From contig JAKFVN010000005.1 of assembly GCA_021732145.1 (NCBI GenBank), forward strand, positions 7,019 through 71,018: DNA of 64,000 nucleotides, read 5' to 3'. The notes beneath the pieces were generated by a model. The model was not told where the DNA came from. It did not search any database and saw only the letters and a program-made list of their open reading frames with translations. How positions within the stretch are numbered: the stretch's first letter is position 1; each line of letters starts with the position of its first letter. The position numbers and the translations under genes are program-made. The DNA is from Alphaproteobacteria bacterium (GTDB taxonomy: Bacteria > Pseudomonadota > Alphaproteobacteria > UBA9219 > RGZA01). Shown here piece by piece: positions 8,864-32,700 of this stretch.

Positions 8864-8905
8864 AAAATGAATCTACACCGCGCTTAACCGCACGAAAACG
8901 TGATT

Positions 8906-9805: not shown

Positions 9806-9914
9806 TATATAATAACCGAAATATGAAATTACTAGGGCAATAGGCGGTAAAACGGGAACTTATGGGCTTGCAAAGAGTCCTGTTTTTGATTAGGTTGCGG
9901 CCTCTTAAAAAGTT

Positions 9915-9991
9915 GCACCCGTAGCTCAACTGGATAGAGCATCTGACTACGGATCAGAAGGTTAGAGATTCGAATTCTCTCGGGTGCACCA
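9915..9991 (+). tRNA. tRNA-Arg (anticodon ACG)
   Basis: A manual cloverleaf fold works: acceptor stem GCACCCG/CGGGTGC, D-arm GCTC..GAGC, anticodon loop CTACGGA, T-loop TTCGAAT, and 3' CCA. Confidence 0.9.
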
Positions 9992-10047
9992 TTTCCATTG
10001 AACAACTTGCATCGTTACAAAAGCGGTTTGTGCTATTCAAATCGACT

Positions 10048-10061
10048 TGTGCTATTCAATT
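10048..10061. repeat. 13-14-bp direct repeat tgtgctattcaat(t). Copies are at 10029-10040 (11/12 match), 10048-10061 and 11451-11464, and they flank the HAD gene.
   Basis: Exact string recurrence seen by eye. Confidence 0.6.
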
Positions 10062-10563
10062 GCTTTTTGGTGTAATTTTTCTCAATAAAATCAAATAGCC
10101 TTAAAGGCAAAATCTGTGAAATACAGATGCTCTAAATTTCCGTATAAAAGTTCGTTTGAACGAGTTGTTTAATGGTGTGCCTTACAAAGCACAATCTGTA
10201 GTCGGTTAGACTGCATGCAAAGGCATCCTTAAAACCCATTTAATTTGAGGTTTTTGATATCTTCTAAAGAAAAGTTAACTGGACGCTGTTTTTCTGCTCA
10301 GAATCTCAAAATATTTTTGGCTTTATAACTCAAATATGTATTACCATTTATTTATAAATAACCCGCGCCGTGCTGTGCTATGACCCGTAAGATATCTCTA
10401 TTAAAAACACAGACCAGATCTCCGTTTGAGTATGCATACGATAAGTCTGGCTATGTTGTATTAGAAGGTTTAGTAAGAAGAGATGCTAATACTGGGCAAT
10501 TAATTGCTAAAGCTTCCAGAGTTCTAAAAGATCCACCTAAAAACAAAAAAAAGTAACTTAGCT

Positions 10564-11448
10564 ATGCCAAACATCGCAATCGTTTGGGATTTTGATGGCA
10601 CGTTGTCGCCTGATGATTCAACGACAAAAGTCGTGGAAACATTACAAGGCGATGGTAAGGGCGGTCCTTTTTGGGATTATATTCATTCTCTGCGTGGAGA
10701 TAAAAATGATCCAGCAGAATGGGAGCATATTTTAGCCATGGATGCTCCTATTTGGATGTATTCACTTTCTAGATTGGCAGTACAAAAAAAAGTTCCGCTC
10801 AATAAAGAATTCTTTCAAAAATTTGTACTACCAAAAATCAAATTATTTCCAGAAGTCCCAAGTTTTCTTAAGGCTATAAAAAAGCTGGAAGAAGCGCCTG
10901 AATTTAAAAAAGTGAATCTGGAAATACATCACTTTATTGTTTCGGCTGGTTTAAAAGAATTAATTGAACAAGTTTTTCCAGAAGGGCTTATTAAATGGAC
11001 CTTTGGATGTAGGTACACAGTTGTAATCGATAAGTTGCATCCAGATGAGCCAGAAAGCGTCCCTGTATTTTGTATGGATGAAACGGTTAAGACCAGATCG
11101 TTATTTGAAATATCTAAAGGCGCATTTTGCAATCCAGAAATAAAAGTTAACTCACGAGTTGAGGATTCAAAATTGTGGGCTTCGTTTAATAACTTCATAT
11201 ACATTGGAGATGGCGATACAGATATCCCAGCGCTTTCATTGGTCAGAAGCAAAGGTGGAATGGGGGTGGCGTTGTATAATCCCGATGCACCAAAAGAAAA
11301 AGTTAAAGCAAGGCACAAATCAATGAGGCTAGATAAAAGAGCTGATATGATAACTGCGGCAGATTTTTCATCGAGCGGCGAGCTTTTTTCCTTCATAAAA
11401 ACGCGATGCATGCAAATACGGTATAGATATGAAGCAGCGCAGAATTAA
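10564..11448 (+). CDS. HAD-superfamily hydrolase in an AT-rich (about 38% GC) segment
   Basis: HAD motif I (VWDFDGTL) and motif IV (IYIGDGDTD). GC content is well below the 55% of the flanking genome. Confidence 0.65.
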   Translation: MPNIAIVWDFDGTLSPDDSTTKVVETLQGDGKGGPFWDYIHSLRGDKNDPAEWEHILAMDAPIWMYSLSRLAVQKKVPLNKEFFQKFVLPKIKLFPEVPSFLKAIKKLEEAPEFKKVNLEIHHFIVSAGLKELIEQVFPEGLIKWTFGCRYTVVIDKLHPDEPESVPVFCMDETVKTRSLFEISKGAFCNPEIKVNSRVEDSKLWASFNNFIYIGDGDTDIPALSLVRSKGGMGVALYNPDAPKEKVKARHKSMRLDKRADMITAADFSSSGELFSFIKTRCMQIRYRYEAAQN

Positions 11449-11565
11449 TCTGTGCTATTCAATTAAGACCAATCCAATACAAACAATGACTTAAACGGCG
11501 TAATATTGAAAATTTGTAGCACAAATTTTTTTGGCTATCCGATTGTAACAAAATAGATAATCAGC

Positions 11566-11616
11566 TTTTCGTAGGCTGACTACGGATCAGAAGGTTAGAG
11601 ATTCGAATTCTCTCGG
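11566..11616 (+). repeat. perfect 51-bp direct repeat of the tRNA-Arg 3' half (identical to 9943-9993). Candidate attR or att remnant.
   Basis: ctgactacggatcagaaggttagagattcgaattctctcgggtgcaccatt is present at both positions. Confidence 0.85.
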
Positions 11617-11662
11617 GTGCACCATTCTTTCAGGCACATCACGCATAATGCTTGGATTGTTG

Positions 11663-12010
11663 GGGAAATTAAAACCCGCAGCAGTGCCAGAATTTTGCTA
11701 ACACCAACCCTACTGCGGGCAGATCGTTCTGCTTGAACAGGAACGAAGCTTCAATATATACGCCGATTTGCATAAAAAGTCATCAGGCTAAATTGCCATG
11801 ATTTGCAAATAATTAGCTGGACGATTCATGGCAAGCGCGTAGATTCGGCGGTGCTAACACCACCAACCAATCCAGTGACAGAATTCATTTTTACTCAGAA
11901 TAGTTTGAACGGCGCATTGTCCATTCCGCTTTTGCGGGTTGATGGCTCACGTCTGCGCTAACCTATTCGGGTATGCATGCATCTTTCACTGGTAACAGTG
12001 CCGGGATTCC
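11663..12010 (+). promoter_or_regulatory. conserved leader module, copy 1, upstream of the GT28 gene. The 49-nt invariant stretch is at 11671-11719.
   Basis: Contains the stretch aaaacccgcagcagtgccagaattttgctaacaccaaccctactgcggg (an imperfect hairpin); a promoter-like ttgcat-N15-taaatt; cgctggacgattca; a second gctaacacc box followed by ccagtgacagaat; and the hairpin ccgcttttgcggg. Confidence 0.6.
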
Positions 12011-13306
12011 ATGACCCACCATTTTACCTTCGATGACCAAGCGCGGCCGGATGCCGCGCCTGCCAAGCCGCGCAAACTGCAATTATTTTTTTTTGATGCG
12101 GGCGGCGGGCACCGCAGCGCCGCAGAAGCGTTGATTGAAAGCGCAAAGGCGACTTATCCCAACTGGGATATCGAACTGATGAATTTGCAGGAACTGCTGA
12201 AGAAGACCGATCCTGTCTATCAGGTAACGGGATATCAGGCGGAAACGCTTTATAACGCGGCGATCAAGCGCGGCTGGACGTATGGCTCGCGGCCATTCCT
12301 GCGCGCGTTGCAACGCGGCATCCGCATGAATGCAGCGCCAATGAGAAAAGTACTGCGGGAGTATTTCGCGCAGTCAAAACCCGATTTAATCGTGTCGGTG
12401 GTTCCGAATTTCAACAAGGTGATGTTCGATGCACTGCGTGCAGTGCATGCGGATGTACCCTATGTGACCATTATGACGGATATTGCAGATAGCCCGCCGA
12501 ATTTCTGGATGGCAAACCAAGACCAGTACATGATTGTGGGCAGCCACAAGGCATTGTTGCAGGCGCATATGTCCGGCTTCTACAGGCCGGAGCGGATTTT
12601 TGAAACATCCGGCATGATTTTGCGGCCCGCGTTTTATAAAGATGTGTCGGATGCACCGTTGACGCATGAAACGATTGGCCTAGATCCCAATAAAAAGACA
12701 GCACTGATTATGTTTGGCGGCAATGGCGCGGTGGTTTCAAAAGAAATCGCGTTGAAGCTGCAAGCGCAGGGCATTCAAAGCATCGTGCTGTGCGGCCATA
12801 ACAAGGCATTGCTGGCGGATATGCAGGGCATTGAAGGGTGCCACGCGATTGGCTTTACCCAAAAGGTTGCCGATTACATGTGCCTCGCGAACTTCTTTGT
12901 TGGTAAGCCCGGCCCCGGCAGCATGACCGAAGCGTTGCATCTGGGGCTGCCGGTGATTATCGAAAACAATTCCCGCACGATGATACAGGAACGCTACAAC
13001 ATCATCTGGGCGGAAGAAAACAGGCTGGGCGTTTCCATCAAAAACTTTGCCCATATCGGCCGCGCCGCCACATTCTTGTTAAACAGCGGGCGGCTTGACC
13101 AACATATATCCAACGCCAACCGCCTGAATAACCGCGCGGTCTACGAAATTCCAAACATGCTGGAAAGCATTATGAATGCAAACCCCGTTTCGCGAGATAC
13201 ACAGCCGATTGTGCTGCCGGAACGCATGGCCGTGCGCGCAGGTGCGCGGCTTCGCGCCATGCTTCGAAGCAGGCCACATCATCAACCCCGAACCCCTTTT
13301 ATATAG
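12011..13306 (+). CDS. GT28-family glycosyltransferase, monogalactosyldiacylglycerol-synthase-like (candidate diacylglycerol glycosyltransferase)
   Basis: N-terminal FFFDAGGGHRSAAEAL matches the MGDG-synthase GGGHRASAEA motif. C-terminal GKPGPGSMTEALHLGLPVI matches the GT28 C-terminal motif. Confidence 0.75.
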   Translation: MTHHFTFDDQARPDAAPAKPRKLQLFFFDAGGGHRSAAEALIESAKATYPNWDIELMNLQELLKKTDPVYQVTGYQAETLYNAAIKRGWTYGSRPFLRALQRGIRMNAAPMRKVLREYFAQSKPDLIVSVVPNFNKVMFDALRAVHADVPYVTIMTDIADSPPNFWMANQDQYMIVGSHKALLQAHMSGFYRPERIFETSGMILRPAFYKDVSDAPLTHETIGLDPNKKTALIMFGGNGAVVSKEIALKLQAQGIQSIVLCGHNKALLADMQGIEGCHAIGFTQKVADYMCLANFFVGKPGPGSMTEALHLGLPVIIENNSRTMIQERYNIIWAEENRLGVSIKNFAHIGRAATFLLNSGRLDQHISNANRLNNRAVYEIPNMLESIMNANPVSRDTQPIVLPERMAVRAGARLRAMLRSRPHHQPRTPFI

Positions 13307-13323
13307 AAACGAATATTCAAGAC

Positions 13324-14580
13324 ATGACTGATACGACGCCTTTACTGCTGACCGATGGTGAACTGGATGCCTTGCACCGCAGATTGGAACCATTTGCCGG
13401 TGCCGATATGCCGGATACCGATTTACCCATTCACGAATTCCGCACCGCGTTTATGTCGGATTTGCATTTGGGGCGGCCCGATAGCAAGACCGATAAACAA
13501 TCCATTTTTTTAGACCGTGCGCGGCTTTCCAACAAAATCATCATCAATGGTGACTTCATTGATTACTGGTTGTTCCGCGCATCACGCCCGCAGCATCTGG
13601 GCCGCATTTTCAAAGATGATACGCATATGCGCACTGCTGTGAAATTTTTAAAGCTGGCGGCGCATGTGGGTTTTCGCCTGGTAAAGTGGGAAGTGTTCAA
13701 GCCATCGGGCGATGAAACCATGCGCTGGGAACAATCGCATAATATCCCGCTGCAAAAACTGCTGCGCATATTGCGCAAAGTGCCGGGCATTTTCGTGCCC
13801 GGAAACCATGATGAAATCTTCCGCGGCTTTACCAATGAATTGCATTTAATGGGCGGGGATGTCGCCGCATTGGCTACAGCGAAAAACGGTGCGCCAATTG
13901 ACTCCAAATTGCGCAATGCGTATTTCAAAAGCCCGTCGCTGGGCAATATGGATGTGCTGGAAGAATTCGTGTATGAAACCATGTCGGGCGAGCATATGCA
14001 TGTGTGCCACGGCGATAAATTCGATAATCCCATGAAAAAATCCAGCGCGCTGGGCATGATGGCAACCTGCGTTTATCACAACGGCATTGCGCCGCTGGTG
14101 CGCAATCTCGGCTTTCCTGAAACGGCATCATCCATGACTGATTATGTGAACAGCATGGATGGCAAAAAGGACATGACGAAGTATTACGATCGCTACGCTG
14201 AATTTCTGGGTAATCAAAATGCAGCTATTGTGGAGCATAACCGTGCGCATCCTGACCAAAAGCCGCGCCCATTACTGCGCGGCGGCATTCATGGCCATAT
14301 TCATAATCCCGGTATTTTTCACCATCGCGGCTATGTATTTATCGATAGCGGCGATTGGGTGGATGATGCGCATTGCACCGCTGCCGTCGAGCATCGCGAT
14401 GGGTCATGGCAGATTATGACGGTCAATCGGGAGAAGGGGATACATCCGCATCCTGTTACGCCGGAACGCGTGCAGCTATTCCAAAACCGCAGCGCATTAT
14501 CGCCCATTCCCAAACAACGTCCGCCGCGTCCCGATGTGGGGTGGATGACGCCCGGTGCAACGATGGAGGCACGGCTATGA
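13324..14580 (+). CDS. calcineurin-like metallophosphoesterase (PlcP-like phospholipase C candidate)
   Basis: Metallophosphoesterase motifs MSDLHLG, NGDFIDYW and VPGNHD. Confidence 0.75.
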   Translation: MTDTTPLLLTDGELDALHRRLEPFAGADMPDTDLPIHEFRTAFMSDLHLGRPDSKTDKQSIFLDRARLSNKIIINGDFIDYWLFRASRPQHLGRIFKDDTHMRTAVKFLKLAAHVGFRLVKWEVFKPSGDETMRWEQSHNIPLQKLLRILRKVPGIFVPGNHDEIFRGFTNELHLMGGDVAALATAKNGAPIDSKLRNAYFKSPSLGNMDVLEEFVYETMSGEHMHVCHGDKFDNPMKKSSALGMMATCVYHNGIAPLVRNLGFPETASSMTDYVNSMDGKKDMTKYYDRYAEFLGNQNAAIVEHNRAHPDQKPRPLLRGGIHGHIHNPGIFHHRGYVFIDSGDWVDDAHCTAAVEHRDGSWQIMTVNREKGIHPHPVTPERVQLFQNRSALSPIPKQRPPRPDVGWMTPGATMEARL

Positions 14581-15428
14581 ACCATAAGAAATCACTTATC
14601 CTGCTTTTGGATATTGATGGCACATTGGTTGATACCGATGCGCATTTAAGCCATGCGATGACCGCGCAATTTGGAAAATACGGCTTGGCATTCGAACCGC
14701 ATGAATTTTTTGAGCCCAAGGCATTCACGATGCCCAATAAAGACGGGGTGATGGAGGTTAAAACCACCATGCTGTTCGGTGCATCATGGGAAATCAATTA
14801 TTATTATCTGAAATCAGAAATTCCCGATGTACCGGTGGATGTGCAAACCTTCCGCAAGGAAATCGTGGAACGCGTGACCAGCAACCATGATGGCGTGATG
14901 CCGCGCCGCGATGTTATTGAAGCCGTATTGGAATTGCGCGCGCATTGCGAAGCGAATGACATAGGTTTTGCTGCTGTTGCCGTTACCAATGGCGCAGGCA
15001 GCGAAGCCAACGCAAATCTGAAAATCGTGAAAGCCGCAGGATTAGTGGTGGATGGGCTGGTTAATGCCGATGATGTGGAAATTCCATATCGCAAGCCGCA
15101 CCCCAAGCCGTATCAGATGGGATATAACATTGCCCGCGCTGTATTGCGCCACAAAGGATATGATGCAGAAGGTGCATGCATTGTTGCGATGGAAGATAGC
15201 CCGCCGGGCGCGCGCAGCGCATTGGCGGCCGGCGAAATATATGACGGCGTGTGTTATTATATTCCCACAACCAAACGCAAAATGCTGATGCCGGAAATGA
15301 CCGATGCGCAATTGGAGCGTTTTGTAGTGCAGCAGGATATATCAGCGCTTGGCATGCATATTAAAACGCAATTGCATGGCAGAGGGGAGCGCGCAGCAAT
15401 GCAATTTGAGAAGCGTGCAGCGTTATAA
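14577..15428 (+). CDS. HAD-superfamily hydrolase / phosphatase
   Basis: HAD motif I LLLDIDGTLVDTD. Its start overlaps the upstream stop (ATGA). I chose the internal ATG at 14577 rather than the longer ORF from 14373. Confidence 0.7.
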   Translation: MNHKKSLILLLDIDGTLVDTDAHLSHAMTAQFGKYGLAFEPHEFFEPKAFTMPNKDGVMEVKTTMLFGASWEINYYYLKSEIPDVPVDVQTFRKEIVERVTSNHDGVMPRRDVIEAVLELRAHCEANDIGFAAVAVTNGAGSEANANLKIVKAAGLVVDGLVNADDVEIPYRKPHPKPYQMGYNIARAVLRHKGYDAEGACIVAMEDSPPGARSALAAGEIYDGVCYYIPTTKRKMLMPEMTDAQLERFVVQQDISALGMHIKTQLHGRGERAAMQFEKRAAL

Positions 15429-15438
15429 ATTTTATGTG

Positions 15439-15810
15439 GGGGAATTTAAAACCCGCAGCAGTGCCAGAATTTTGCTAACACCAACCCTACTGCGGGCAGA
15501 CATTCTCGCTAAACAAGAATGAAGCAATTAGATATAAGATGATTTGCATAAAAAGTCGATGAGGTAAATTGATACGAAAGTAAAATTATTCGCTGGACGA
15601 TTCAGTCAAATAATATAAATTTCATGTTGCTAACACCAACAACAACCAGTGACGGAATACCCTACTCAATTTGAAAATTATGGCATGGCAGGTTTACCCG
15701 CTTTAGCGGGGTGATTTGCATCGGCATTTTTAACAACAGAACGCGCAGGAATTGCGTTTTCTGCATGTGTGGGCGCGTGTTTTTGAACTGGCAACATTGC
15801 CGGAATACGA
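15439..15810 (+). promoter_or_regulatory. conserved leader module, copy 2, upstream of the four-gene operon. The 49-nt stretch is at 15447-15495.
   Basis: Same ordered blocks as copy 1: the 49-nt stretch, ttgcat-N15-taaatt, cgctggacgattca, gctaacaccaacaacaaccagtgacggaat, the hairpin cccgctttagcgggg, and attgccggaatacga immediately before the ATG. Confidence 0.6.
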
Positions 15811-16776: not shown

Positions 16777-16805
16777 GGGCGTTTTTTGTTAAGTGAGGTT
16801 TGCTG

Positions 16806-25572: not shown

Positions 25573-25604
25573 TGGATTGGGCAATCGAGTGAGTTAGGAT
25601 TTTC

Positions 25605-25944: not shown

Positions 25945-27042
25945 ATGCCCCACAAGGCACACGAAGAACCAGAACCCAAAATTGCCCAAATAAGCCCGGA
26001 TGTGCTGCGTCATATTGACCGCGCCAATAATGTTGATTGGGACAGGGTTGTGCCGCTTGCCATCAATTATGGCCGTTGCAGAGCAACTGGCATAATGGTG
26101 AAAGAGTTTGCCGAAGAGCTGGCGGCGGCTGGCTTCGTAAAGCAGGCAGGCAACGGTACTTATGCGCTGAATATCGAAAAGCACCCGCTGGCCAAGGAAG
26201 ATGTTGAAGCGCATATCAAGACAGTCGAGCAATACTGCATTGAAAAGAAGCATATTGCGGAGCTGCGCGGCGAGCGCCTGTATTTAACCGACAGTTTAAA
26301 CCCCGAACATAAAGACCGCTATGCCACCTATGACCGCAATTTGCGCGTGATGGGCTTTTGGGTGCATTCGGTATGCGTGATTACGCATCAATGCACGGGC
26401 GAGCATAAGGGCGATCTCATTCTGGCGGAACGCCACCCGCTGATTATCGAAACCAAGAATGACAGCAAATGGGATCCGTTATCGGGCGCGATTGCCGCGG
26501 GCACAACGCCATTTGAAACATTGGTCAGCGAAGGGTTTGATGAGTACGGTTTAAGCGAGCGCCAGATGCGCCGCGCGCGACCCTTAACAACAGTGACAAC
26601 GCAGCGCGTGTGCAGCGAAAACTCAAATCATATTGTGCGTGAACGTGTGCAGGTCAGCATGCTTGGCTTAACCGGAAAAGAATTCAAACGCCTGGCCTGC
26701 CATGACGTGAAAGATGTGGTGGTGCGGCACGGCGAAGGCACGCGCAAGATGGGCGTGACATCGAATGTCGGCTTTGTGCGCGTATCGCCTGGCAAGGTGA
26801 TGGAGCATTTGCGCAAGCGCAAGCACTTGAAGAACGGCAAGGCCTTATCGATGCTCAGCTATTTGGTGCGTGAGGGCCATACTGCAGCAGCCGACCCCAG
26901 CGCGGCAGATATCCGCAATCGCCTTGCGCATAAGCCAAAAACCTATTGCCGCACCAGCAAAACCTGGAAAATGCATATCCGCACGCCGGTTCGCGGCGCG
27001 ATGCGTCATGCGCAACCTGCACAATGCAGGCTTGCGGCATGA
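25945..27042 (+). CDS. hypothetical protein with a degenerate Nudix-like box
   Basis: GAIAAGTTPFETLVSEGFDEYGL resembles the Nudix motif Gx5Ex7REUxEExGU. I set the start at 25945 because the leader alignment with copy 2 places the ATG there; the longer ORF from 25897 would run over conserved leader sequence. Confidence 0.5.
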   Translation: MPHKAHEEPEPKIAQISPDVLRHIDRANNVDWDRVVPLAINYGRCRATGIMVKEFAEELAAAGFVKQAGNGTYALNIEKHPLAKEDVEAHIKTVEQYCIEKKHIAELRGERLYLTDSLNPEHKDRYATYDRNLRVMGFWVHSVCVITHQCTGEHKGDLILAERHPLIIETKNDSKWDPLSGAIAAGTTPFETLVSEGFDEYGLSERQMRRARPLTTVTTQRVCSENSNHIVRERVQVSMLGLTGKEFKRLACHDVKDVVVRHGEGTRKMGVTSNVGFVRVSPGKVMEHLRKRKHLKNGKALSMLSYLVREGHTAAADPSAADIRNRLAHKPKTYCRTSKTWKMHIRTPVRGAMRHAQPAQCRLAA

Positions 27043-28139
27043 GTTTTATCACAACGCGTGATTTATTCATTGACGCTGCACGCATGGTTGCCAAACGGAT
27101 GAAAATTATCCACCCGCGCCCATTGCTGATGCGGCTTGATTTTGAAGACGGCGTTCACCTGTTCACGCATGGCGCAAAACCAAATCTCAATACGATTGGC
27201 GTTGGCAAAATCGCCAGGGATAAGGATTTAACGGTGCGCGTTCTGGAAAATCTGGGCTTGCCCACGCCGCCATCGCATTTCGTTGAATTAACGCGCGAAA
27301 AATTTGCCAAGGCCGATGACATTACCCAGACAGCGGAATATAAGGCGTTGGATGCGTTTGCGCAGCGCGTGGGTTACCCGATTTTTCTAAAGCCCAACCA
27401 GGGTTCGCAGGGTTGCAATGTGTTCTGCGTGCCGGATGAAGATAAGCTGAAAAATATTGTGGGTTCACTGATTAAACGCGCGCCGGGTTATTTCATCGCG
27501 CAGGAAGCATCAGTGGGCGAGGAATACCGCATTGTAGTGGTGCAGGGTGAAATCCAGCTTGCCTATTACCGCCGCCCGTTATCGGTAGTGGGGGATGGCG
27601 TTGCAACCATTCAGCATTTGGTTGACCGCCAGAATAGATGGCTGCAAAAACGCGGCCGCCATACCAATTTGAAATCCAATAGCGATAAAATTAAAATGCA
27701 TTTGGCAAGCCAAGGCCTGCGCCTTGATAGCGTATTGCCAATGGGCGATGTGGTGACGGTATTATCTAACCGCAATCTGTCCGATGGCAGCGAGCCCGTT
27801 GAATGCACGCAGATGATACGCGAAAAATACAGCGCGCTGTGTCGCGATGTTTATGAGCGGGGCGGCGTTGATTATTGCGGGTTGGATTTAATCGAAGATA
27901 TTCGCAGCGGTCAGATTAAACCTGTAATCATCGAAATTAACAGCAGCCCCGGCTACAAGCATTTCATTCGCAGCGCGCCGGAAAACCCGCCGCTGGTGCG
28001 CAGCGTATTCATCGAAGCCATTCATGCATCGCACCGCAAGCAGGTGCTGCTGCATTCGGCATACCGCCCCAGCGTTTATCTTTTAACCAGCACCACGCCG
28101 CCGCAACCCCCGCACGCCGCACTGTTAATCCAGGGATGA
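27039..28139 (+). CDS. ATP-grasp family ligase (RimK/cyanophycin-synthetase-like fold)
   Basis: PIFLKPNQGSQGCNVF, EEYRIVVVQGEI and GLDLIED...PVIIEINSSPG fit ATP-grasp motifs. The start overlaps the upstream stop (ATGA). Confidence 0.65.
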   Translation: MSFITTRDLFIDAARMVAKRMKIIHPRPLLMRLDFEDGVHLFTHGAKPNLNTIGVGKIARDKDLTVRVLENLGLPTPPSHFVELTREKFAKADDITQTAEYKALDAFAQRVGYPIFLKPNQGSQGCNVFCVPDEDKLKNIVGSLIKRAPGYFIAQEASVGEEYRIVVVQGEIQLAYYRRPLSVVGDGVATIQHLVDRQNRWLQKRGRHTNLKSNSDKIKMHLASQGLRLDSVLPMGDVVTVLSNRNLSDGSEPVECTQMIREKYSALCRDVYERGGVDYCGLDLIEDIRSGQIKPVIIEINSSPGYKHFIRSAPENPPLVRSVFIEAIHASHRKQVLLHSAYRPSVYLLTSTTPPQPPHAALLIQG

Positions 28140-28143
28140 AAGG

Positions 28144-29424
28144 ATGCCCCGTATGACCGCACCCCCAAGCAATAGCCATGCAGCGCATGATTTATTTGCG
28201 CCCGCAGCGCAGCAGGTTTCCTTAAGCGATGCAATTGAATTGCACCGTTTTCAGGGCGTGAAGGACGCGCACCGCGTCGCGCTGATTGAAAGATTGCTGC
28301 ACGGGCTTGCCACGGTTGTGCCCAGCAAGGCGAATAGCGACATTTTGCTGATGGTGTGCGGCAATGAAGAACATTTTCGCTTGGCCAAAAAACTGATGGC
28401 TGAATTCAGTGACATGTTCGCGGCTGTAAAAGAAAAGCATGACAATAATAAAAAATGCGTTGAAGCGATGCATGAGCGCGTGAAAACCATGCGTGAAAGC
28501 AATGGCCTGTTTAAAGACAGGGATACGAAGGTTCCAGGCTTCCTTCGTGATGTGAAGCTGCGCCCGCGCGAAGCCTTAAGCGAAGGCCAAACCCCGCTGA
28601 TTGATAGCCTTGCCGATGAAACCACCAATATCATTGCCGTGCTGGGGCATTTTGGTTCGGGCAAAACCTATCTGGCGGTGGCGCAGGGGCTTGAGGATAT
28701 TATCACGGGCCGCCGCACCAAGCTGATTGCGACGCGTAAAGAGTCGCCGGTGCATAAGCAAATCGGCTTTGTGCCGGGCACCCAGCACGACAAAACCAAG
28801 CGTGATAACCACGCCGTGTTTGAAAATCTGGTCAAGGTGATGATGGATTGGGGCGTGCCTGAAAAGGATGCGATTGATAAAACCGAACGCCTCATCAAGC
28901 CATCCAAATCATTATTACCGGGGCAGGAAATTGTTGAAGTGGTGCTGCCCGCGCAATTGGAAGGCCGCACCATCCACGATGCGGTGATTATCCTGGATGA
29001 AGCGCATGGCATTCCCACCGCGTTGATGCGCGGCATTCTGGGACGGCTTGGCAATAATTCGAAGCTCATTATCATGGGGGACTTCCACCAGATTAATGAC
29101 AAGCGCTTGCGCCAAACCCATTATGATGAAGATGACGGATGCGGCCTTGCCTATGCGGTGTCGTTTCTGGCCGATAGCCCGAACATTGATAACATTGCCA
29201 TGATTGTGAACATGGATGCCAAGGATGTGCATCGCAGCGCGGCAACGCGCGAAGTTGCCTTTGCGATGCAGGCTTACGCTAAAAAGCGCGGGCGTTTTCC
29301 CGTATGGCAGGGTGATATTGATAATGCGCTGGTGCAATATGCGGAACGCAAGCAAACCGCAATGCGTTCAAACGTGGCAACGCTGCGCAGGTCGCGCATT
29401 GCCACTGCATCCTGCGATGCCTGA
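28144..29424 (+). CDS. PhoH-like ATPase with an N-terminal extension of about 170 aa
   Basis: Walker A LGHFGSGKTYLAVA, ATRKESPV...GFVPGT, and Walker B IILDEAHG match PhoH-family motifs. Confidence 0.7.
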   Translation: MPRMTAPPSNSHAAHDLFAPAAQQVSLSDAIELHRFQGVKDAHRVALIERLLHGLATVVPSKANSDILLMVCGNEEHFRLAKKLMAEFSDMFAAVKEKHDNNKKCVEAMHERVKTMRESNGLFKDRDTKVPGFLRDVKLRPREALSEGQTPLIDSLADETTNIIAVLGHFGSGKTYLAVAQGLEDIITGRRTKLIATRKESPVHKQIGFVPGTQHDKTKRDNHAVFENLVKVMMDWGVPEKDAIDKTERLIKPSKSLLPGQEIVEVVLPAQLEGRTIHDAVIILDEAHGIPTALMRGILGRLGNNSKLIIMGDFHQINDKRLRQTHYDEDDGCGLAYAVSFLADSPNIDNIAMIVNMDAKDVHRSAATREVAFAMQAYAKKRGRFPVWQGDIDNALVQYAERKQTAMRSNVATLRRSRIATASCDA

Positions 29425-29500
29425 TTGAGTCGCAGGCATGATGCGGCTGAAATGAGGCAGCTTGTTTCGCCGGCGATGGCGGTGGTATCGTCAGCTTATG

Positions 29501-30574
29501 AAATTCAAAGCATTTTTATTATCGGTCATTATTTCTCTCGTCCTGTTGTGCGTCCCGGCTTTTGCCAAGGATGCGCAACCTGCTGCACCTGCCAAAGCAC
29601 CCGTTGCGGCCGCGCCTGTTCAGGACAAAACCATTTTGCCGCCTAAAATCGCGCCGGATAAACTGCCAAAGAAAATCAAGCTGGCCGGCAGCGCCTATAT
29701 TCCGTTCAAGACATGGGATAGGGGCAAGGAAATTCAAGGGGGCGGATTTTTATTGCTGCCGCCTAATCTCATTATCGGTAAGGACAAGGTTCCGGTTGTC
29801 ATCATTATGCATGGCAGCAGGGGCGTGACGCCCGAGCATGAATATGTCTATGCGCGGGAATTGGTCGCGATGGGCGTGGCTGCCTTTGTGGTGGATAGTT
29901 ATACACCGCGCGGCATTGCCACGACGCATGAAAACCAGCGCCTTATCTCCATTCGCGACTTCACGCTCGATGCGTACCGCGCGCTTTATGAACTGCGCAA
30001 GGAACCGCGCGTGGATATCAGCAGGGCAGGGATTGTCGGCTTTTCCAAGGGCGCGATTATTTCATTGCTGACCGCAATGAATGTGAAACGCAATGAATTG
30101 CGCATTGATAAAAATTTGAAGTTTAAAGCGCATTATCTGTTTTATCCCGGATGCGTGCTGCATTACCGCGATAATTCAACAACCGGCGCGCCGATTACGT
30201 TCTTCCTTGGCGAAAAGGATACGTATACCGGCGTGAAGCCATGCGTGAATTTGTCGAACGAATTATTTGCCAATGGCGCAAAAACGCAGAGCATTATTTA
30301 CAAAGACGCCGTGCATGCATGGGATTTTCCCGGCGAAGAAGCGCACCCCGAAGCGGAAGTATTTATGAATTGTGATTTTTACCAGCAGCCCGATAACACA
30401 TGGATCGAAAAGAAATCCGGCGTGACGGGCATTCGGGGATTGGAAGGCCCCACTTATGAAAAAGCGCTGAAGGGTTGCCTGACCTTTGGCGAAGTTTCAA
30501 AAGAAAACGCGAAAGCCAATGCGCAATCGATGGCGGATTTCAAGCGCCTGGTGAAAGAGCAGCTTTTTAAATAG
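29501..30574 (+). CDS. secreted alpha/beta hydrolase (dienelactone-hydrolase-like)
   Basis: Signal peptide MKFKAFLLSVIISLVLLCVPAFA and nucleophile elbow GFSKG. I chose the ATG at 29501; the longer ORF from 29462 is less likely. Confidence 0.6.
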   Translation, partial: KFKAFLLSVIISLVLLCVPAFAKDAQPAAPAKAPVAAAPVQDKTILPPKIAPDKLPKKIKLAGSAYIPFKTWDRGKEIQGGGFLLLPPNLIIGKDKVPVVIIMHGSRGVTPEHEYVYARELVAMGVAAFVVDSYTPRGIATTHENQRLISIRDFTLDAYRALYELRKEPRVDISRAGIVGFSKGAIISLLTAMNVKRNELRIDKNLKFKAHYLFYPGCVLHYRDNSTTGAPITFFLGEKDTYTGVKPCVNLSNELFANGAKTQSIIYKDAVHAWDFPGEEAHPEAEVFMNCDFYQQPDNTWIEKKSGVTGIRGLEGPTYEKALKGCLTFGEVSKENAKANAQSMADFKRLVKEQLFK

Positions 30575-30617
30575 CGCCCGTTGCTAAGGGTGTTGCATCG
30601 CAACAGGTTATTCACAT

Positions 30618-30642
30618 GTTTTTTGGAAATTGCCCAAAAAAC
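30618..30642. promoter_or_regulatory. palindromic operator-like site gttttttgg-N7-ccaaaaaac upstream of the protease gene
   Basis: 9-bp inverted arms in an AT-rich intergenic region. Confidence 0.35.
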
Positions 30643-30729
30643 TGCTAAACACAAATCAAATTTGGCAATACGATTCAAAGCTTGTTCGTCGCACTTATAT
30701 ATATGTGTTCACATAGATAGGGTTATTAG

Positions 30730-32433
30730 TTGCTGGCACCCTTGGACAAAGTTTTAGCTTTTTCTCCCGCTGGTGCAGCGGCGCCTGCCAGCCGCCTAGA
30801 GCGAAGCAACGAAGCCAAATACAAAACTGGCAAAGAACTGGCAGAATTCTGCAAAAAGCATAATATTCCCCATGTGCTTGATGCCACCAGCATGGTGTTG
30901 CCAACGCGCGAATTGCAGGATTTGTTCAGCAAAGAATATCCAATTTCGTGGTTTCCGGATATTGGCCTGCGCCAGGAAGGTGCATCCACCGTTATTGCGC
31001 TGGAAAGCAAGAACAAGGACAGCCCCGATAGTCTGCACGGCCATGTGATGTCGGCGATTTCCGGTTATGTCGCCAAGAAATTGGGGATGGTGACGGATAG
31101 CGTTTATATCCAAGCCGACCCCGAACTGGAATACCGCGTGGCGTTTCAACCGGCATTGGTTGACCCCATGACCACGCTGCTCAAAGACCAAGGCGCGGCG
31201 GTTATTTCATCCTGCGTTGAATGGAATGACTTGTTTCTTGATTTTGGTCACAAGGCCGACAGCCAATACGAATTATTCTGGCATACAACGGCGTTTGCGT
31301 TTACTTCGGCTGGGAATAACGGCCTTTATGGGCCTGATGGCGATATTAAAGTTCCAACACAAAAGCACATGGCGTTTTGTCATGCGCCCCCGCTTGCCGC
31401 CAGTGTCGGCGCGGTGGAGTGGGGCGAACGTACGTCGATGCTGACCGAAGGTTTTTATATTCCGGGTTATAGCTCGGCAAATGGGCCGACATTCTTGGCG
31501 CCGGTTGCGCCGCTGGCCAAAGTGAAATGGAAAAATGACAAAGAACCGGAAGCGATTACTGGTTCATCCGCGGCAGAGCCTTATGCGGCGGGTGTGTTTG
31601 CGGCGCTGAACAAACGCTTTGGCCCATATTTAACGCGTGAACAGATTTTGTTCGCGGTGATTGCGACCTGCGATAAGACCACGCAGGTGCATAAATTCGA
31701 TAAGCAAACGCCGGATGATTACTCCATTATCTACAAGCCAAATGCGGCGGGGCATACTTTTAACGACGGGCCGGGCGGCTTTGGTATGATTAACCCATAC
31801 AAGGCGCATCGTTTATTGGCGCATATGGTTCTGTTGACACAGAACAATCCGGATTTAATTACCGAGCCAACGGAAGTACGCGCGGAATTGCCCATTCCAA
31901 AAAATCCTGCCAGCTATGCGGCGAAGGATGGTTTTTATTATTATGAGATTGAATTGCCAGCGGGCTATGCATTGAAGACCACGATTGAAGCGCAATTCAC
32001 CAACGCAGAGGGCGTTGATGTGGCGCATGGTCAATTGCGCATGACCAGCCCATCGGGAACGGAGTTTGCGATGGTGACCAGCCGTTCCTATAAGGATGGT
32101 GTGTTTAATGGTGTATCCACAACGCATGGCTTTACGGGCGAGCAAACCGCAGGCACATGGCGCGTGCGCAGCACCGAACCCATCAGCCATCTGCGCATTA
32201 GCGCGCATCGCTTCATGGAAGGCGATGTTGTTCATCAATTGGATATTAAACGGCTAATGAATACACCAGAGCCGTATATTCAGAATGCGGTGCCATTGGT
32301 TGAATTGAAAAATGATTTGCGCGCGGTGCAAACGGTTGCCATGCAACCGCGCCGTCCGCAGCATGCCGCAAAAGGGGCAGAAAGAATGCCTCATGCTTCT
32401 GCGTTTCCGCAGGTTGCTGTCGCAGCGATGTAG
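30730..32433 (+). CDS. subtilisin-like serine protease (peptidase S8) with a C-terminal beta-rich domain. The start codon is uncertain.
   Basis: Candidate Asp region HVLDATS, His motif LHGHVMSAISG, and Ser motif GSSAAEPYAAGVFAAL resembling GTSMAAPHVAG. Confidence 0.6.
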   Translation: MLAPLDKVLAFSPAGAAAPASRLERSNEAKYKTGKELAEFCKKHNIPHVLDATSMVLPTRELQDLFSKEYPISWFPDIGLRQEGASTVIALESKNKDSPDSLHGHVMSAISGYVAKKLGMVTDSVYIQADPELEYRVAFQPALVDPMTTLLKDQGAAVISSCVEWNDLFLDFGHKADSQYELFWHTTAFAFTSAGNNGLYGPDGDIKVPTQKHMAFCHAPPLAASVGAVEWGERTSMLTEGFYIPGYSSANGPTFLAPVAPLAKVKWKNDKEPEAITGSSAAEPYAAGVFAALNKRFGPYLTREQILFAVIATCDKTTQVHKFDKQTPDDYSIIYKPNAAGHTFNDGPGGFGMINPYKAHRLLAHMVLLTQNNPDLITEPTEVRAELPIPKNPASYAAKDGFYYYEIELPAGYALKTTIEAQFTNAEGVDVAHGQLRMTSPSGTEFAMVTSRSYKDGVFNGVSTTHGFTGEQTAGTWRVRSTEPISHLRISAHRFMEGDVVHQLDIKRLMNTPEPYIQNAVPLVELKNDLRAVQTVAMQPRRPQHAAKGAERMPHASAFPQVAVAAM

Positions 32434-32447
32434 GGGGAGTTAATCAT

Positions 32448-32625
32448 TGGAGCGGGGATGAGGATTCGAACCCTGTGCCGCTTTGCGGCACGTATAAATT
32501 TGTCGAGGGTTCCTGACAACTACCGCTAGCTCTCAATGGAGCGGGGATGAGGATTCGAACCCTGTGCCGCTTTGCGGCACGTATAAATTTGTCGAGGGTT
32601 CCTGACAACTACCGCTAGCTCTCAA
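32448..32625. repeat. two tandem 89-bp direct repeats (32448-32536 and 32537-32625). Each begins with a tRNA-Gly-3'-end-like segment and contains a perfect 7-bp hairpin gtgccgc-ttt-gcggcac.
   Basis: The two units are identical by eye. Their first roughly 27 nt resemble the T-arm and acceptor 3' end of the adjacent tRNA-Gly (tggagcggg...attcgaaccct). A manual fold of either unit into a full cloverleaf failed. Confidence 0.7.
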
Positions 32626-32700
32626 TGGAGCGGGCGAAGGGATTCGAACCCTCGACCCTAACCTTGGCAAGGTTATGCTCTACCCCTGAGCTACGCCCGC
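32626..32700 (-). tRNA. tRNA-Gly (anticodon GCC)
   Basis: The reverse complement GCGGGCGTAGCTCAGGGGTAGAGCATAACCTTGCCAAGGTTAGGGTCGAGGGTTCGAATCCCTTCGCCCGCTCCA folds as a cloverleaf with anticodon loop TTGCCAA. Confidence 0.9.

What the first reader, a model, noticed from the sequence alone, without database searches (positions are those of the whole stretch)
9915..32700. Roughly 22.7-kb accessory region bracketed by two inward-pointing tRNA genes, with no integrase
tRNA-Arg(ACG) on the plus strand and tRNA-Gly(GCC) on the minus strand both have their 3' ends facing the intervening region. The 3' end of a tRNA is the classical insertion point for genomic islands. Both borders carry att-like partial tRNA repeats: a 51-bp copy of the tRNA-Arg 3' half at 11566, and two 89-bp tRNA-Gly-3'-like units at 32448-32625. 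Nothing in the region looks like core housekeeping: it encodes glycosyltransferase, phosphoesterase and HAD enzymes, giant unknown proteins, an ATP-grasp enzyme, a PhoH-like ATPase and secreted hydrolases. No integrase, transposase or recombinase ORF is detectable. Except for the 10-11.5 kb segment, GC content is close to the genome average. This points to an old, stabilised island or to a composite of two islands.
Basis: partly seen in the sequence, partly recalled or inferred. Interest (0 to 1): 0.7.

Follow-up and report, generated by a model that had tools for sequence, protein, structure and literature searches.

The report
tRNA hot spot, not one island
The 22.7-kb stretch between the two tRNA genes is not one genomic island: it holds a recently inserted 1.6-kb integrase-less islet with a candidate anti-phage gene pair at tRNA-Arg, a 17.8-kb rare gene cluster of native composition, and two genes also found at this spot in a related genome.

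Summary
All the sequence facts check out: both tRNAs, an exact 51-bp tRNA-Arg repeat, two 89-bp units beside tRNA-Gly, no integrase, and a GC dip at 10-11.6 kb.

The single-island reading holds for only 1.6 kb. The segment 9994-11626 is the only compositional outlier in the 64 kb. It is bounded by perfect att-type repeats and carries a conserved pair: a 58-aa ORF plus a HAD phosphatase (PADLOC PDC-S34). It is absent from a related genome. A 99%-identical strain has a different tRNA-Arg 3' half and unrelated DNA there.

The remaining DNA has native tetranucleotide and codon usage. It forms three co-directional operons, each headed by a conserved ~350-nt leader. Relatives carry the same operons in other orders and places, without tRNAs or recombinases.

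One relative (trx 83%) has only the DLH and S8-like genes between the same two tRNAs. It also keeps a truncated leader right after tRNA-Arg, so it most likely lost the cluster by deletion.

The giant proteins are nuclease-like: g1103 resembles Exonuclease I and g1064 weakly resembles RNase J.

Verdict: a tRNA-linked variable region containing one small CIME-like islet, not a 22.7-kb island. Interest is moderate.

The parts
9915..9991 (+). tRNA-Arg(ACG), the target of integration. The att repeat begins at tRNA position 29, in the anticodon stem.
   Evidence: The sequence is identical in relative L148.
9943..9993 (+). attL-type copy of the 51-bp direct repeat, running from the anticodon stem to 2 nt past CCA.
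   Evidence: 51/51 identical to 11576-11626, with 0 matches in shuffles.
9994..11575 (+). Interior of the islet: 1,582 bp with GC about 0.35-0.38. It is the only compositional outlier in the window.
   Evidence: GC; tetranucleotide z up to 12.2; GC3 0.315, codon distance 0.62. Absent from L148. 100% identical in an independent sample, L086.
10029..10059 (+). Two copies of TGTGCTATTCAA (10029-10040 and 10048-10059). A third copy lies at 11451-11462. These are possible arm-type recombinase-binding sites on both arms of the att site.
   Evidence: 3 matches, all inside the islet, against 0.46 expected. Their function is inferred.
10380..10556 (+). 58-aa ORF, the conserved partner of the HAD gene. 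Its motif is YDxSxYVV...RRDAxTGxL.
   Evidence: Found 4-92 nt upstream of the HAD homolog in 35 of the 42-44 loci with enough upstream sequence (a few are duplicates of one contig).
10564..11448 (+). 294-aa HAD-superfamily phosphatase that matches PADLOC candidate defence family PDC-S34. Its fold is closest to cytosolic 5'-nucleotidase III and phosphoserine phosphatase.
   Evidence: (E 5.7e-45), (pLDDT 90; NT5C3 E 1e-8; 531 homologs).
11576..11626 (+). attR-type displaced copy of the tRNA-Arg 3' half. The DNA just after it aligns with the DNA after tRNA-Arg in L148.
11652..12010 (+). Leader element e1, upstream of operon A.
12011..15428 (+). Operon A: a diglycosyl-DAG-synthase-like GT28 (12011-13306), an LpxH-like metallophosphoesterase (13324-14580) and a HAD phosphatase (14577-15428).
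   Evidence: Composition is native.
15431..15812 (+). Leader element e2, upstream of operon B.
15811..25572 (+). Operon B: u321 (15811-16776), g1064 with an RNase-J-like MBL domain (16800-19994), g1103 with an Exonuclease-I-like N-terminal half (19994-23305) and g756 (23302-25572). Adjacent genes overlap at their stop and start codons.
   Evidence: The same gene order is found in L081, L082 and L084.
25594..25944 (+). Leader element e3, upstream of operon C. The true u381 start is probably the ATG at about 25945.
25945..29424 (+). Operon C, cluster part: u381, a cyanophycin-synthetase/RimK-like ATP-grasp (27039-28139) and a PhoH-like ATPase (28144-29424).
29462..32433 (+). DLH-family hydrolase (29462-30574) and an S8-like protease with a P-domain (30730-32433). 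Both are also found between the same two tRNAs in L148.
   Evidence: In L148 they are the only genes between the same two tRNAs, at 52% and 51% identity.
32444..32621 (-). Two tandem 89-bp units. Each holds a degenerate tRNA-3'-end-like 31-mer and an inverted T-arm fragment around a perfect hairpin. They are lineage-specific scars or duplications at the tRNA-Gly 3' end.
   Evidence: Absent from L148.
32626..32700 (-). tRNA-Gly(GCC). The junction tRNA-Gly / thioredoxin-TPR / Lon-N is conserved even in distant Alphaproteobacteria.

Best explanation
The interval is a tRNA-linked variable region made of four layers of different age. It is not one island.

1. A recent 1,633-bp insertion at tRNA-Arg (9994-11626). 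It was made by tyrosine-integrase-type recombination in the anticodon-loop region, which leaves a rebuilt tRNA plus a displaced 51-bp 3' fragment. It has no recombinase of its own but keeps both att sites intact, which is the definition of a cis-mobilizable element (CIME). It is either a hitch-hiker moved by an integrase supplied in trans or the minimal remnant of a larger island. Its cargo is a conserved two-gene cassette: a ~58-aa protein plus a 5'-nucleotidase-like HAD phosphatase. PADLOC lists the phosphatase as candidate anti-phage system PDC-S34. I infer that it acts by dephosphorylating nucleotides.

2. A 17.8-kb cluster of native composition (11627-29424). Its three co-directional operons each start with the same ~350-nt leader, so I infer they form one regulon. 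Operon A looks like a glycolipid/phospholipid-turnover set. Operon B encodes giant nuclease-like proteins resembling RNase J and Exonuclease I. Operon C encodes an ATP-grasp ligase and a PhoH-like ATPase. The cluster was probably already at this locus in the common ancestor shared with relative L148, which later deleted it. Other relatives carry it rearranged or elsewhere.

3. DLH and S8-like genes that a related genome also carries between these two tRNAs.

4. Two 89-bp tRNA-Gly-like scar units.

What is shown: the anatomy, composition, synteny and homology. What is inferred: the mode of integration, the defence role, the regulon, the direction of the indel and any physiological role.
For: Islet:
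- Exact 51-bp repeat.
- Tetranucleotide z up to 12.2, and codon distance 0.62 against at most 0.44 for every other gene.
- Absent in L148, where tRNA-Arg is followed directly by DNA that aligns with window 11627 onward.
- Sister strain L144 (99.1% identical) has the same tRNA 5' half. From position 38 onward it has a different 3' half, followed by unrelated DNA.
- PDC-S34 match at E 5.7e-45.
- A homolog in a Micavibrio MAG sits in a similar ~1.47-kb low-GC insert behind tRNA-Asp, with a repeat of the tRNA 3' part.
- The HAD gene has lower GC than its flanks in nearly all of 45 loci.
- The small ORF is conserved in 35 of the 42-44 loci with enough upstream sequence.
- CIME definition: PMC6323972. 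tRNA-island anatomy: PMC4383910.

Bulk of the region:
- Native composition.
- No recombinase family hit.
- The leader is found before each operon and before operon B in L081, L082 and L084.
- L081 has the order A-C-B, against A-B-C here.
- No tRNA in L081-L084.
- L148 synteny is proB-obg-rpmA-rplU-TPR_GT-GT2-tRNA-Arg-DLH-S8-tRNA-Gly-trx-lonN.
- The 10-mer CCCGCAGCAG occurs only in the three leaders here and once in L148, 35 nt after tRNA-Arg.
- Identity series: g1103 99/85/60/48/39% against thioredoxin 100/88/83/80/71/60/50%.
- g1103 resembles ExoI: the top 18 PDB hits are all ExoI, and D54, E56, D201, H304 and D309 are invariant.
Against: - The cluster's position differs in every genome seen, and it is missing at this locus in L148. 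An old mobile origin therefore remains possible.
- The deletion polarity rests on about 50 nt of alignment in one genome. The more distant relative L150 was uninformative.
- I could not tie L081-L084 to particular core genomes, so the comparison of identity series is indirect.
- No cognate integrase, empty site in the same strain, or excised circle was demonstrated. The 1,663-bp contig L086 with a 30-nt terminal overlap may be a circle or a de Bruijn-graph break at the repeat.
- tRNA adjacency of the HAD cassette is seen in only a minority of loci, and its non-coding flanks are not conserved.
- PDC-S34 is only a candidate system, and no paper in the library mentions it.
Confidence: 0.6

Rival explanations
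1. The whole tRNA-Arg to tRNA-Gly interval, or at least the 19.5 kb from tRNA-Arg to PhoH, is an old genomic island or two fused islands. It would have lost its integrase and become compositionally ameliorated.
For: - The interval lies between two tRNA 3' ends.
- Its content is non-housekeeping.
- The 19.5 kb is absent from the same locus in L148.
- The cluster sits in a different neighbourhood in each relative.
- A bona fide insertion and a second element at the same tRNA show that the site is active.
Against: - Composition and codon usage are native.
- There is no att repeat for the bulk of the region and no recombinase.
- L148 keeps a truncated leader after tRNA-Arg, which implies a deletion there.
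- DLH and S8 are also present at this position in L148.
- Close full-length g1103 relatives are few (12) and their identities fall off in steps, like those of the flanking thioredoxin gene.
- No tRNA or mobility gene lies near the cluster in L081-L084.
Confidence: 0.2
2. The islet is an inert remnant. A larger tRNA-Arg island or prophage lost everything except the defence cassette through internal deletion. It no longer moves, and its resemblance to a CIME is incidental.
For: - No integrase lies in the islet or in the rest of the finding's region.
- In other genomes the HAD cassette mostly sits as a lone gene between housekeeping genes, with no conserved element ends.
- In L088 it lies at the edge of a larger element that has a serine recombinase.
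Against: - The 51/51 repeat is perfect, and the islet is 100% identical in two samples.
- The 12-mer is repeated on both arms.
- A second, independent islet of minimal size lies at a different tRNA in Micavibrio.
- Another element is active at the same tRNA in a co-occurring strain.

These points argue for recency and possible competence, but they do not prove mobility.
Confidence: 0.35
3. The 17.8-kb cluster is a novel defence-type or nucleic-acid-degrading system. It relocates between genomes or loci by recombination at its repeated leader elements, so the region is a defence island without classical mobility genes.
For: - It encodes giant ExoI-like and RNase-J-like proteins and a PhoH-like ATPase.
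- It lies adjacent to a PDC-S34 cassette.
- The operon order is permuted exactly at the leaders between the window and L081.
- A 49-nt core is identical in all three leaders.
- Its presence among relatives is patchy.
Against: - None of the cluster proteins scanned matched a PADLOC model, apart from one marginal PhoH hit at E 0.008; the operon A proteins were not scanned.
- Composition is native.
- The family is rare and mostly confined to one lineage, unlike typical defence genes: 12 close and 109 remote representatives among 1.84 billion.
- Operon A looks metabolic.
Confidence: 0.15

Closest known systems
Cis-mobilizable elements (CIMEs) and genomic islets at tRNA genes. CIMEs are described for Streptococcus ICE families and defined in ICEberg 2.0, PMC6323972.
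   Same: The islet has intact attL and attR flanking a short cargo and no integration or transfer genes. It lies at the 3' part of a tRNA gene, with a rebuilt tRNA and a displaced fragment as in Islander-type islands (PMC4383910).
   Different: No cognate ICE or integrase is known. At 1.6 kb it is much smaller than the CIMEs I recall from the literature (my own knowledge). Its cargo is a candidate defence pair. Mobilisation has not been shown.
PADLOC candidate system PDC-S34 (a HAD-like single-gene candidate).
   Same: The match is strong and nearly full-length (E 5.7e-45, profile positions 5-271 of 284).
   Different: Here, and in most homologous loci, the HAD gene is preceded by a conserved ~45-60-aa ORF, so the unit looks like two genes. 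No experimental validation was found.
E. coli Exonuclease I (SbcB), a DEDDh exonuclease; compared with g1103.
   Same: The predicted fold of the N-terminal ~600 residues matches ExoI best (E 2e-6). Acidic and histidine residues are invariant at positions that fit the DEDDh motifs.
   Different: g1103 is 1,103 aa with a ~500-aa C-terminal extension of unknown fold. It shares only 10-14% identity with ExoI and has no Pfam hit. It is always encoded between an RNase-J-like 1,064-aa protein and a 756-aa protein.
plcP-glycosyltransferase lipid-remodelling operons of the Pho regulon (PMC4796936); compared with operon A.
   Same: A metallophosphoesterase lies next to a diacylglycerol glycosyltransferase-like gene. 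A PhoH-like gene is in the same cluster.
   Different: Orthology to PlcP or Agt was not tested. The glycosyltransferase belongs to the GT28/UgtP type. No Pho box was identified, and the shared leader is unlike any known element.
tRNA-linked repeats downstream of E. coli tyrT (RtT RNA); this comparison rests on my own knowledge. Compared with the 89-bp units.
   Same: Tandem repeats lie directly 3' of a tRNA gene, and each contains a copy of the tRNA's 3' end.
   Different: No Rfam match was found. The tRNA-like part is only 81% identical over 31 nt, the units differ in length and content from RtT, and they are absent in relative L148.

Membership tests
tRNA-integrated genomic island (Islander-type), applied to the whole 22.7 kb | A displaced fragment of the target tRNA marks the far end of the island. 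| tested here: not met
   The only second copy of the tRNA-Arg 3' half lies 1.6 kb away. The tRNA-Gly-like units abut tRNA-Gly itself and have no partner at the other end.
tRNA-integrated genomic island (Islander-type), applied to the whole 22.7 kb | An integrase gene lies within the island. | tested here: not met
   Pfam, NCBIfam and PADLOC scans of the major ORFs found no integrase, resolvase or transposase family.
tRNA-integrated genomic island (Islander-type), applied to the whole 22.7 kb | Composition or codon usage differs from the host genome. | tested here: not met
   Tetranucleotide z stays within the range seen elsewhere in the window (-1.4 to 2.3), and codon distance is 0.19-0.33, inside the flank-gene range of 0.15-0.44.
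tRNA-integrated genomic island (Islander-type), applied to the whole 22.7 kb | The island is present or absent between related genomes, with insertion polarity. | tested here: inconclusive
   About 19.5 kb is absent in L148, but L148 retains a truncated leader e1, which favours a deletion there. Only one genome was informative.
tRNA-integrated islet / CIME, applied to 9943-11626 | Intact attL and attR, seen as a direct repeat of the tRNA 3' part. | tested here: met
   The repeat is 51/51 identical and runs from the anticodon stem to 2 nt past CCA.
tRNA-integrated islet / CIME, applied to 9943-11626 | No integration or transfer genes inside the element. | tested here: met
   The only ORFs conserved in homologous loci are the 58-aa ORF and the 294-aa HAD gene.
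tRNA-integrated islet / CIME, applied to 9943-11626 | Foreign composition, and absence from relatives. | tested here: met
   Tetranucleotide z up to 12.2 and GC3 0.315. The islet is absent in L148, and a different tRNA 3' half with unrelated DNA is found in strain L144.
tRNA-integrated islet / CIME, applied to 9943-11626 | Can be mobilised by a cognate integrase or ICE. | not testable with these tools
   No integrase lies in the islet or the finding's region; the ORFs beyond about 40.5 kb were not scanned. The circle-like contig L086 is ambiguous.
PADLOC PDC-S34 | Match to the family HMM over most of its length. | tested here: met
   E 5.7e-45, 151.9 bits, residues 2-290 against profile positions 5-271 of 284.
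PADLOC PDC-S34 | Anti-phage activity. | not testable with these tools
   This is a candidate family only, and no paper in the library mentions it.
DEDDh exonuclease / Exonuclease I (g1103) | ExoI-like fold. | tested here: met
   The top 18 Foldseek PDB hits are all ExoI (E 2e-6 to 7e-4), followed by RNase T and TREX1. The model has mean pLDDT 70.
DEDDh exonuclease / Exonuclease I (g1103) | Catalytic motifs D-x-E, D and H-x4-D. | tested here: inconclusive
   D54, E56, Y200, D201, H304 and D309 are invariant in 12 homologs. I assigned them to the motifs by eye, not from a structural superposition.
DEDDh exonuclease / Exonuclease I (g1103) | Match to the family sequence model. | tested here: not met
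   No Pfam or NCBIfam hit at E <= 0.01, and no PDB sequence hit.
RNase J / beta-CASP metallo-beta-lactamase (g1064) | HxHxDH motif and a family-level HMM score. | tested here: inconclusive
   H444-L-H-A-D-H449 is invariant. Scores are far below the cut-offs: Lactamase_B_2 19.9 bits against 27, RNase J1 23 bits against 820, and PDB 3zq4 at E 0.088.
plcP-glycosyltransferase lipid-remodelling operon (operon A) | A PlcP-family phospholipase C next to a glycolipid glycosyltransferase, under a Pho box. | not tested
   Only the architecture resembles it: the GT28 matches diglucosyl-DAG synthase at E 1e-20, and the metallophosphoesterase has an LpxH-like N-terminus at E 9e-4. No PlcP sequence or Pho-box model was available.
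RtT / tRNA-linked repeats (89-bp units) | Match to the Rfam RtT model, or a tRNA-like fold. | tested here: not met
   No Rfam hit at E <= 1 other than tRNA-Gly itself. The folding z-score is about -2.

The most novel reading that the evidence does not exclude
The 17.8-kb cluster may be a previously undescribed, co-regulated system for nucleic-acid and lipid turnover. Its parts are giant Exonuclease-I-like and RNase-J-like proteins with two unknown partners, an ATP-grasp ligase, a PhoH-like ATPase and a glycolipid/phosphoesterase operon. It would be switched on through a new ~350-nt structured leader shared by all three operons, possibly in response to phosphate starvation or as a defence. Separately, the 58-aa + HAD pair may be a minimal cassette that is repeatedly captured at different tRNA genes without an integrase of its own.
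Probability: 0.25. Interest if true: 0.6.

Novelty: new member of a known kind. Interest (0 to 1): 0.4.

Why it matters
- It shows that lying between two tRNA genes and lacking housekeeping genes is not enough to call a genomic island. Here only 7% of the interval behaves like one.
- It gives a clean natural example of an integrase-less mini-islet with perfect att sites and a candidate anti-phage cargo. It also suggests that PDC-S34 is really a two-gene unit.
- It flags a rare gene cluster confined mainly to one lineage, with ExoI-like and RNase-J-like giant proteins and a conserved leader element. All of these can be tested experimentally.

Tried and rejected
- The genome-contig scan with the thioredoxin-TPR protein was saturated by the common thioredoxin motif (VDFWAEWC among the search patterns). 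It returned only relatives at 48% identity or less, which showed just that the tRNA-Gly/trx/lonN junction is conserved.
- The exact-protein look-up of the thioredoxin gene failed, probably because the gene was called with a different start.
- Logan contigs of the same species break at the 51-bp repeat and at the 49-nt leader core (k=31). They therefore could not reveal an empty site in this strain.
- The 1,663-bp contig L086 equals the islet unit plus 30 nt. I considered it as evidence for an excised circle and rejected it as ambiguous, because its ends coincide exactly with the repeat, as a graph break would.
- Viral-contig scans found nothing for the L144 junction, the islet attL junction or the HAD family. 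The phage collection gave only one weak partial hit, and plasmid hits were only 23-32% identical.
- Rfam found nothing for the 89-bp units or the leader. Consensus promoter and terminator scans were uninformative.
- I considered a sigma-54 reading of the TGGCA...TTGCC motif before each start codon and rejected it because the spacing is wrong (by eye).
- L150 (trx 59%) has lost the upstream synteny, so it gives no polarity information.
- The literature search for RtT was swamped by unrelated 'RTT' papers, and the search for PDC-S34 found no paper.
- PADLOC gave no convincing hit for the operon B and C proteins scanned (one marginal PhoH hit, E 0.008), so I did not file the cluster under any known defence system.

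Full report
**Observation**

ARAGORN and Rfam find exactly two tRNA genes in the window. tRNA-Arg(ACG) lies at 9915-9991 (+) and tRNA-Gly(GCC) at 32626-32700 (-), with their 3' ends pointing at each other.

The 3' part of tRNA-Arg (9943-9993, from the anticodon stem to 2 nt past CCA) is repeated exactly at 11576-11626. No third copy exists, even allowing 3 mismatches.

Next to tRNA-Gly lie two 89-bp tandem units that are 99% identical. Only their first ~31 nt resemble the tRNA-Gly 3' end, at 81%, and no tool calls them tRNA.

They find no integrase, resolvase or transposase. GC falls to 0.35-0.42 only at 10-12 kb.

The source is a 774,651-bp metagenome contig, ENA ERZ1079237 k127_68826. I read the name as assembly with k=127, which is longer than the 51-bp repeat, so the junctions should be read-supported.

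**Only 1.6 kb behaves like an island**

- In 2-kb windows, tetranucleotide deviation reaches z = 7.6-12.2 at 9-12 kb. It stays between -2.3 and 2.6 everywhere else in the 64 kb, and between -1.4 and 2.3 across 12-32.5 kb.
- Codon usage gives the same picture. The islet gene has GC3 0.315 and a distance of 0.62 from the flank reference. The other twelve genes of the interval score 0.19-0.33, inside the range of the flanking genes, 0.15-0.44.

**The islet (9994-11626)**

The repeat geometry is that of tyrosine-integrase insertion into a tRNA gene: a rebuilt tRNA plus a displaced 3' fragment (PMC4383910). That the crossover lies in the anticodon loop rests on my own knowledge of Williams 2002.

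A 12-mer, TGTGCTATTCAA, occurs three times in the window, all inside the islet. Two copies lie 36-66 nt from attL and one lies 114 nt before attR, against 0.46 matches expected by chance. I read these as possible arm-type binding sites, which is an inference.

The cargo is a 58-aa ORF (10380-10556) and a 294-aa HAD protein (10564-11448).
- The HAD protein matches PADLOC candidate system PDC-S34 at E 5.7e-45.
- Its AlphaFold model is confident (pLDDT 90). It is closest to cytosolic 5'-nucleotidase III (E 1e-8) and phosphoserine phosphatase.
- The family is widespread: 531 hits, at 60-75% identity across unrelated taxa.
- In 45 metagenome loci the gene is almost always lower in GC than its flanks. 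Only the coding sequence is conserved, not the flanks.
- Its neighbours are mostly housekeeping genes. One resolvase appears among 75 neighbours, and no tyrosine integrase appears among the 25 families listed.
- The small ORF lies 4-92 nt upstream in 35 of the 42-44 loci with enough upstream sequence (a few are duplicates of one contig), so the unit is a gene pair.

Three observations show that the site is active and the insert is recent.
1. Relative L148 (GCA_041917755.1) has an identical tRNA-Arg. It is followed directly by DNA that aligns with window 11627 onward, so L148 lacks the islet.
2. In sample DRR836179, a strain 99.1% identical in the GT2 gene has the same tRNA 5' half. From position 38 onward it has a different 3' half, which creates an A3·C70 mismatch, followed by unrelated DNA. 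A different insert therefore sits at the same site.
3. A 70%-identical HAD homolog in a Micavibrio aeruginosavorus MAG lies in a ~1.47-kb low-GC insert directly behind tRNA-Asp. It has a degenerate repeat of the tRNA 3' part and no recombinase nearby.

The islet meets the published definition of a CIME: intact attL and attR with no integration or transfer genes (PMC6323972). I could not decide whether it still moves. Contig L086 (1,663 bp, equal to the 1,633-bp unit plus 30 nt, with a 30-nt terminal overlap) may be an excised circle. Its ends, however, coincide with the repeat, as a k=31 graph break would.

**The bulk (11627-29424)**

This part consists of three co-directional operons.
- Operon A: a GT28 like diglucosyl-DAG synthase (E 1e-20), an LpxH-like metallophosphoesterase and a HAD phosphatase.
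- Operon B: u321, g1064, g1103 and g756, with overlapping stop and start codons.
- Operon C: u381, a cyanophycin-synthetase/RimK-like ATP-grasp and a PhoH-like ATPase, followed after 37 nt by DLH and S8like.

Each operon is preceded by the same ~350-nt element: e1 at 11652-12010, e2 at 15431-15812 and e3 at 25594-25944. The three copies share an identical 49-nt core. The element contains:
- a conserved hairpin with a 25-nt loop carrying GCTAACACCAAC, with two compensatory changes at one base pair of the stem across genomes;
- a second hairpin whose sequence varies while its pairing is kept;
- a near-invariant ~65-nt block;
- a second GCTAACACCAAC motif;
- a third hairpin;
- a palindrome just before the start codon.

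No Rfam family matches the element, and it has no consensus sigma-70 promoter. An HMM of the element finds no further copies in the window.

g1103 has only 12 close homologs among 5.8 billion proteins. A profile search finds 109 representatives among 1.84 billion. Their genomic contexts are as follows.
- L081 (85% identical) has the order A-C-B instead of A-B-C, with the breaks at the leaders. Its PhoH is only 22% identical to the one here.
- L082/L083 (61%) and L084 (60%) carry leader-B with an ATP-grasp or a u381 homolog nearby, in unrelated neighbourhoods.
- No tRNA was found in any of these loci, and no gene with a recombinase-type Pfam domain was listed.

For function, the g1103 model (pLDDT 70) matches Exonuclease I in its top 18 PDB hits (E 2e-6 to 7e-4), followed by RNase T and TREX1. 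D54, E56, D201, H304 and D309 are invariant. g1064 has an invariant HLHADH motif and weak RNase J similarity. g756, u321 and u381 have no detectable relatives of known function. Apart from one marginal PhoH hit (E 0.008), none of the operon B and C proteins scanned matches a PADLOC model.

**The decisive synteny test**

L148 is a fairly close relative: trx 83%, uvrA 88.5%, obg 87% and proB 90% identical. Its gene order is proB-obg-rpmA-rplU-TPR_GT-GT2-tRNA-Arg-DLH-S8-tRNA-Gly-trx-lonN-...-uvrA-ssb-dnaE.

So DLH and S8like are also present at this position in L148, although they diverge fast (52% and 51% identity). About 19.5 kb is extra in the window.

The 61 nt between tRNA-Arg and DLH in L148 align with the start of e1. 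This includes the 10-mer CCCGCAGCAG, the 5' arm of hairpin 1. That 10-mer occurs in the window only in the three leaders, and occurs once in L148's 20.9 kb, 35 nt after tRNA-Arg. I estimate the chance of this at about 1e-4. The hairpin's 3' arm is missing in L148.

Full hairpins head operon B in three other genomes, in contexts without tRNAs. The simplest reading is therefore that L148 deleted the cluster from inside e1 to just before DLH. The cluster would then already have been at this locus in the common ancestor.

The identity series agree with descent inside one lineage: g1103 at 99/85/60/48/39%, against thioredoxin at 100/88/83/80/71/60/50%. This comparison is indirect, because I could not tie the contigs to particular genomes.

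The more distant L150 (trx 59%) has lost the upstream synteny. Alphaproteobacteria at about 46% identity share only the tRNA-Gly/trx/lonN junction.

**The 89-bp units**

L148 lacks them. Each unit ends with a copy of the native spacer before tRNA-Gly. Each also carries an inverted fragment of the T-arm around a perfect GTGCCGC/GCGGCAC hairpin. I regard them as duplicated integration or recombination scars, comparable in layout to the tRNA-linked repeats of E. coli tyrT (my own knowledge). They do not belong to that family.

**Conclusion**

The interval is a tRNA-linked variable region with layers of different age.
1. A recent CIME-like islet carrying a candidate defence pair.
2. A 17.8-kb three-operon cluster of native composition that is rare, mostly confined to one lineage and probably co-regulated.
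3. Two genes also present at this position in a related genome.
4. Small scars at tRNA-Gly.

An old, fully ameliorated island cannot be excluded; I give it about 0.2.

A functional idea for the cluster rests only on the resemblance of operon A to plcP-glycosyltransferase operons (PMC4796936), the PhoH-like gene and the nucleases. On that basis it may be a phosphate-starvation turnover regulon. This is a hypothesis, not a finding.

Noticed in passing
window 11652-12010, 15431-15812, 25594-25944; also L081 1500-1815 and 5467-5821, L082 6375-6717, L084 5559-5907: A conserved ~350-nt leader element precedes each of the three operons and operon B in relatives. It has an identical 49-nt core in the three window copies, two conserved hairpins (one with covarying sequence) and the motif GCTAACACCAAC twice. 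A palindrome (CTGGCAACATTGCCGG in e2, less perfect in the other copies) sits just before the ATG. It has no Rfam match. It could be a new cis-regulatory RNA or a complex promoter-operator.
   Followed up: partly
window 10380-10556 and the homologous position in L087-L128: A ~45-60-aa ORF with the motif YDxSxYVV...RRDAxTGxL lies 4-92 nt upstream of the PDC-S34-type HAD gene in 35 of the 42-44 loci with enough upstream sequence. The 'single-gene' candidate system therefore looks like a two-gene cassette.
   Followed up: yes
L144 1-210 (Logan DRR836179_273990), corresponding to window ~9880-9995: A strain 99.1% identical in the GT2 gene has a hybrid tRNA-Arg. The 5' half is identical and the 3' half is foreign from position 38, with an A3·C70 acceptor mismatch and a G discriminator. 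Unrelated GC-rich DNA follows. This indicates a different element at the same att site, and that element was not identified.
   Followed up: partly
L086 (Logan DRR836179_25653, 1,663 bp), equal to window 9964-11626: This contig equals the islet unit (1,633 bp) plus a 30-nt terminal overlap, which is k-1 for k=31. It may be an excised circle or a de Bruijn-graph break at the 51-bp repeat.
   Followed up: partly
L087 9490-11100 (Micavibrio aeruginosavorus MAG CP066681.1): A second mini-islet carries the same cassette at 70% aa identity. It lies behind tRNA-Asp(GTC), is about 1.47 kb with GC 0.42-0.45 against 0.55-0.60 in the flanks, and has a degenerate repeat. The repeat extends past the tRNA into its downstream terminator-like sequence.
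   Followed up: partly
window 28144-29424 compared with L081 4033-5268: The PhoH-like gene of operon C is only ~22% identical between the window and the 85% relative. Its neighbours u381 and the ATP-grasp are 59% and 70% identical. This suggests non-orthologous replacement of PhoH.
   Followed up: no
window 5184-7034 and 7031-8863: Two tandem paralogous TPR + GT9-like glycosyltransferase genes (about 68-72% nt identity in pieces) stand where relative L148 has a single copy.
   Followed up: no
window ~8000-10000: Gene orientation switches at tRNA-Arg: the main ORFs to its left are on the minus strand, and all from 10.4 to 34.5 kb are on the plus strand. Cumulative GC skew has its minimum near 8 kb. 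This could simply reflect transcription strand, or it could mark a replication-related switch.
   Followed up: no
window 32444-32621: Each 89-bp unit contains GAACCCT...AGGGTTC, an inverted copy of the tRNA-Gly T-arm, flanking a perfect 7-bp GC hairpin. On the plus strand this sits just after the S8like stop codon and may double as its terminator.
   Followed up: partly
L136-L141, corresponding to window ~11670-15475: In six samples, Logan contigs of this species start in the leader e1; the three complete ones also end in e2. The near-identical leader cores are collapsed by k=31 assembly. This is a practical trap for anyone judging synteny from such contigs.
   Followed up: yes
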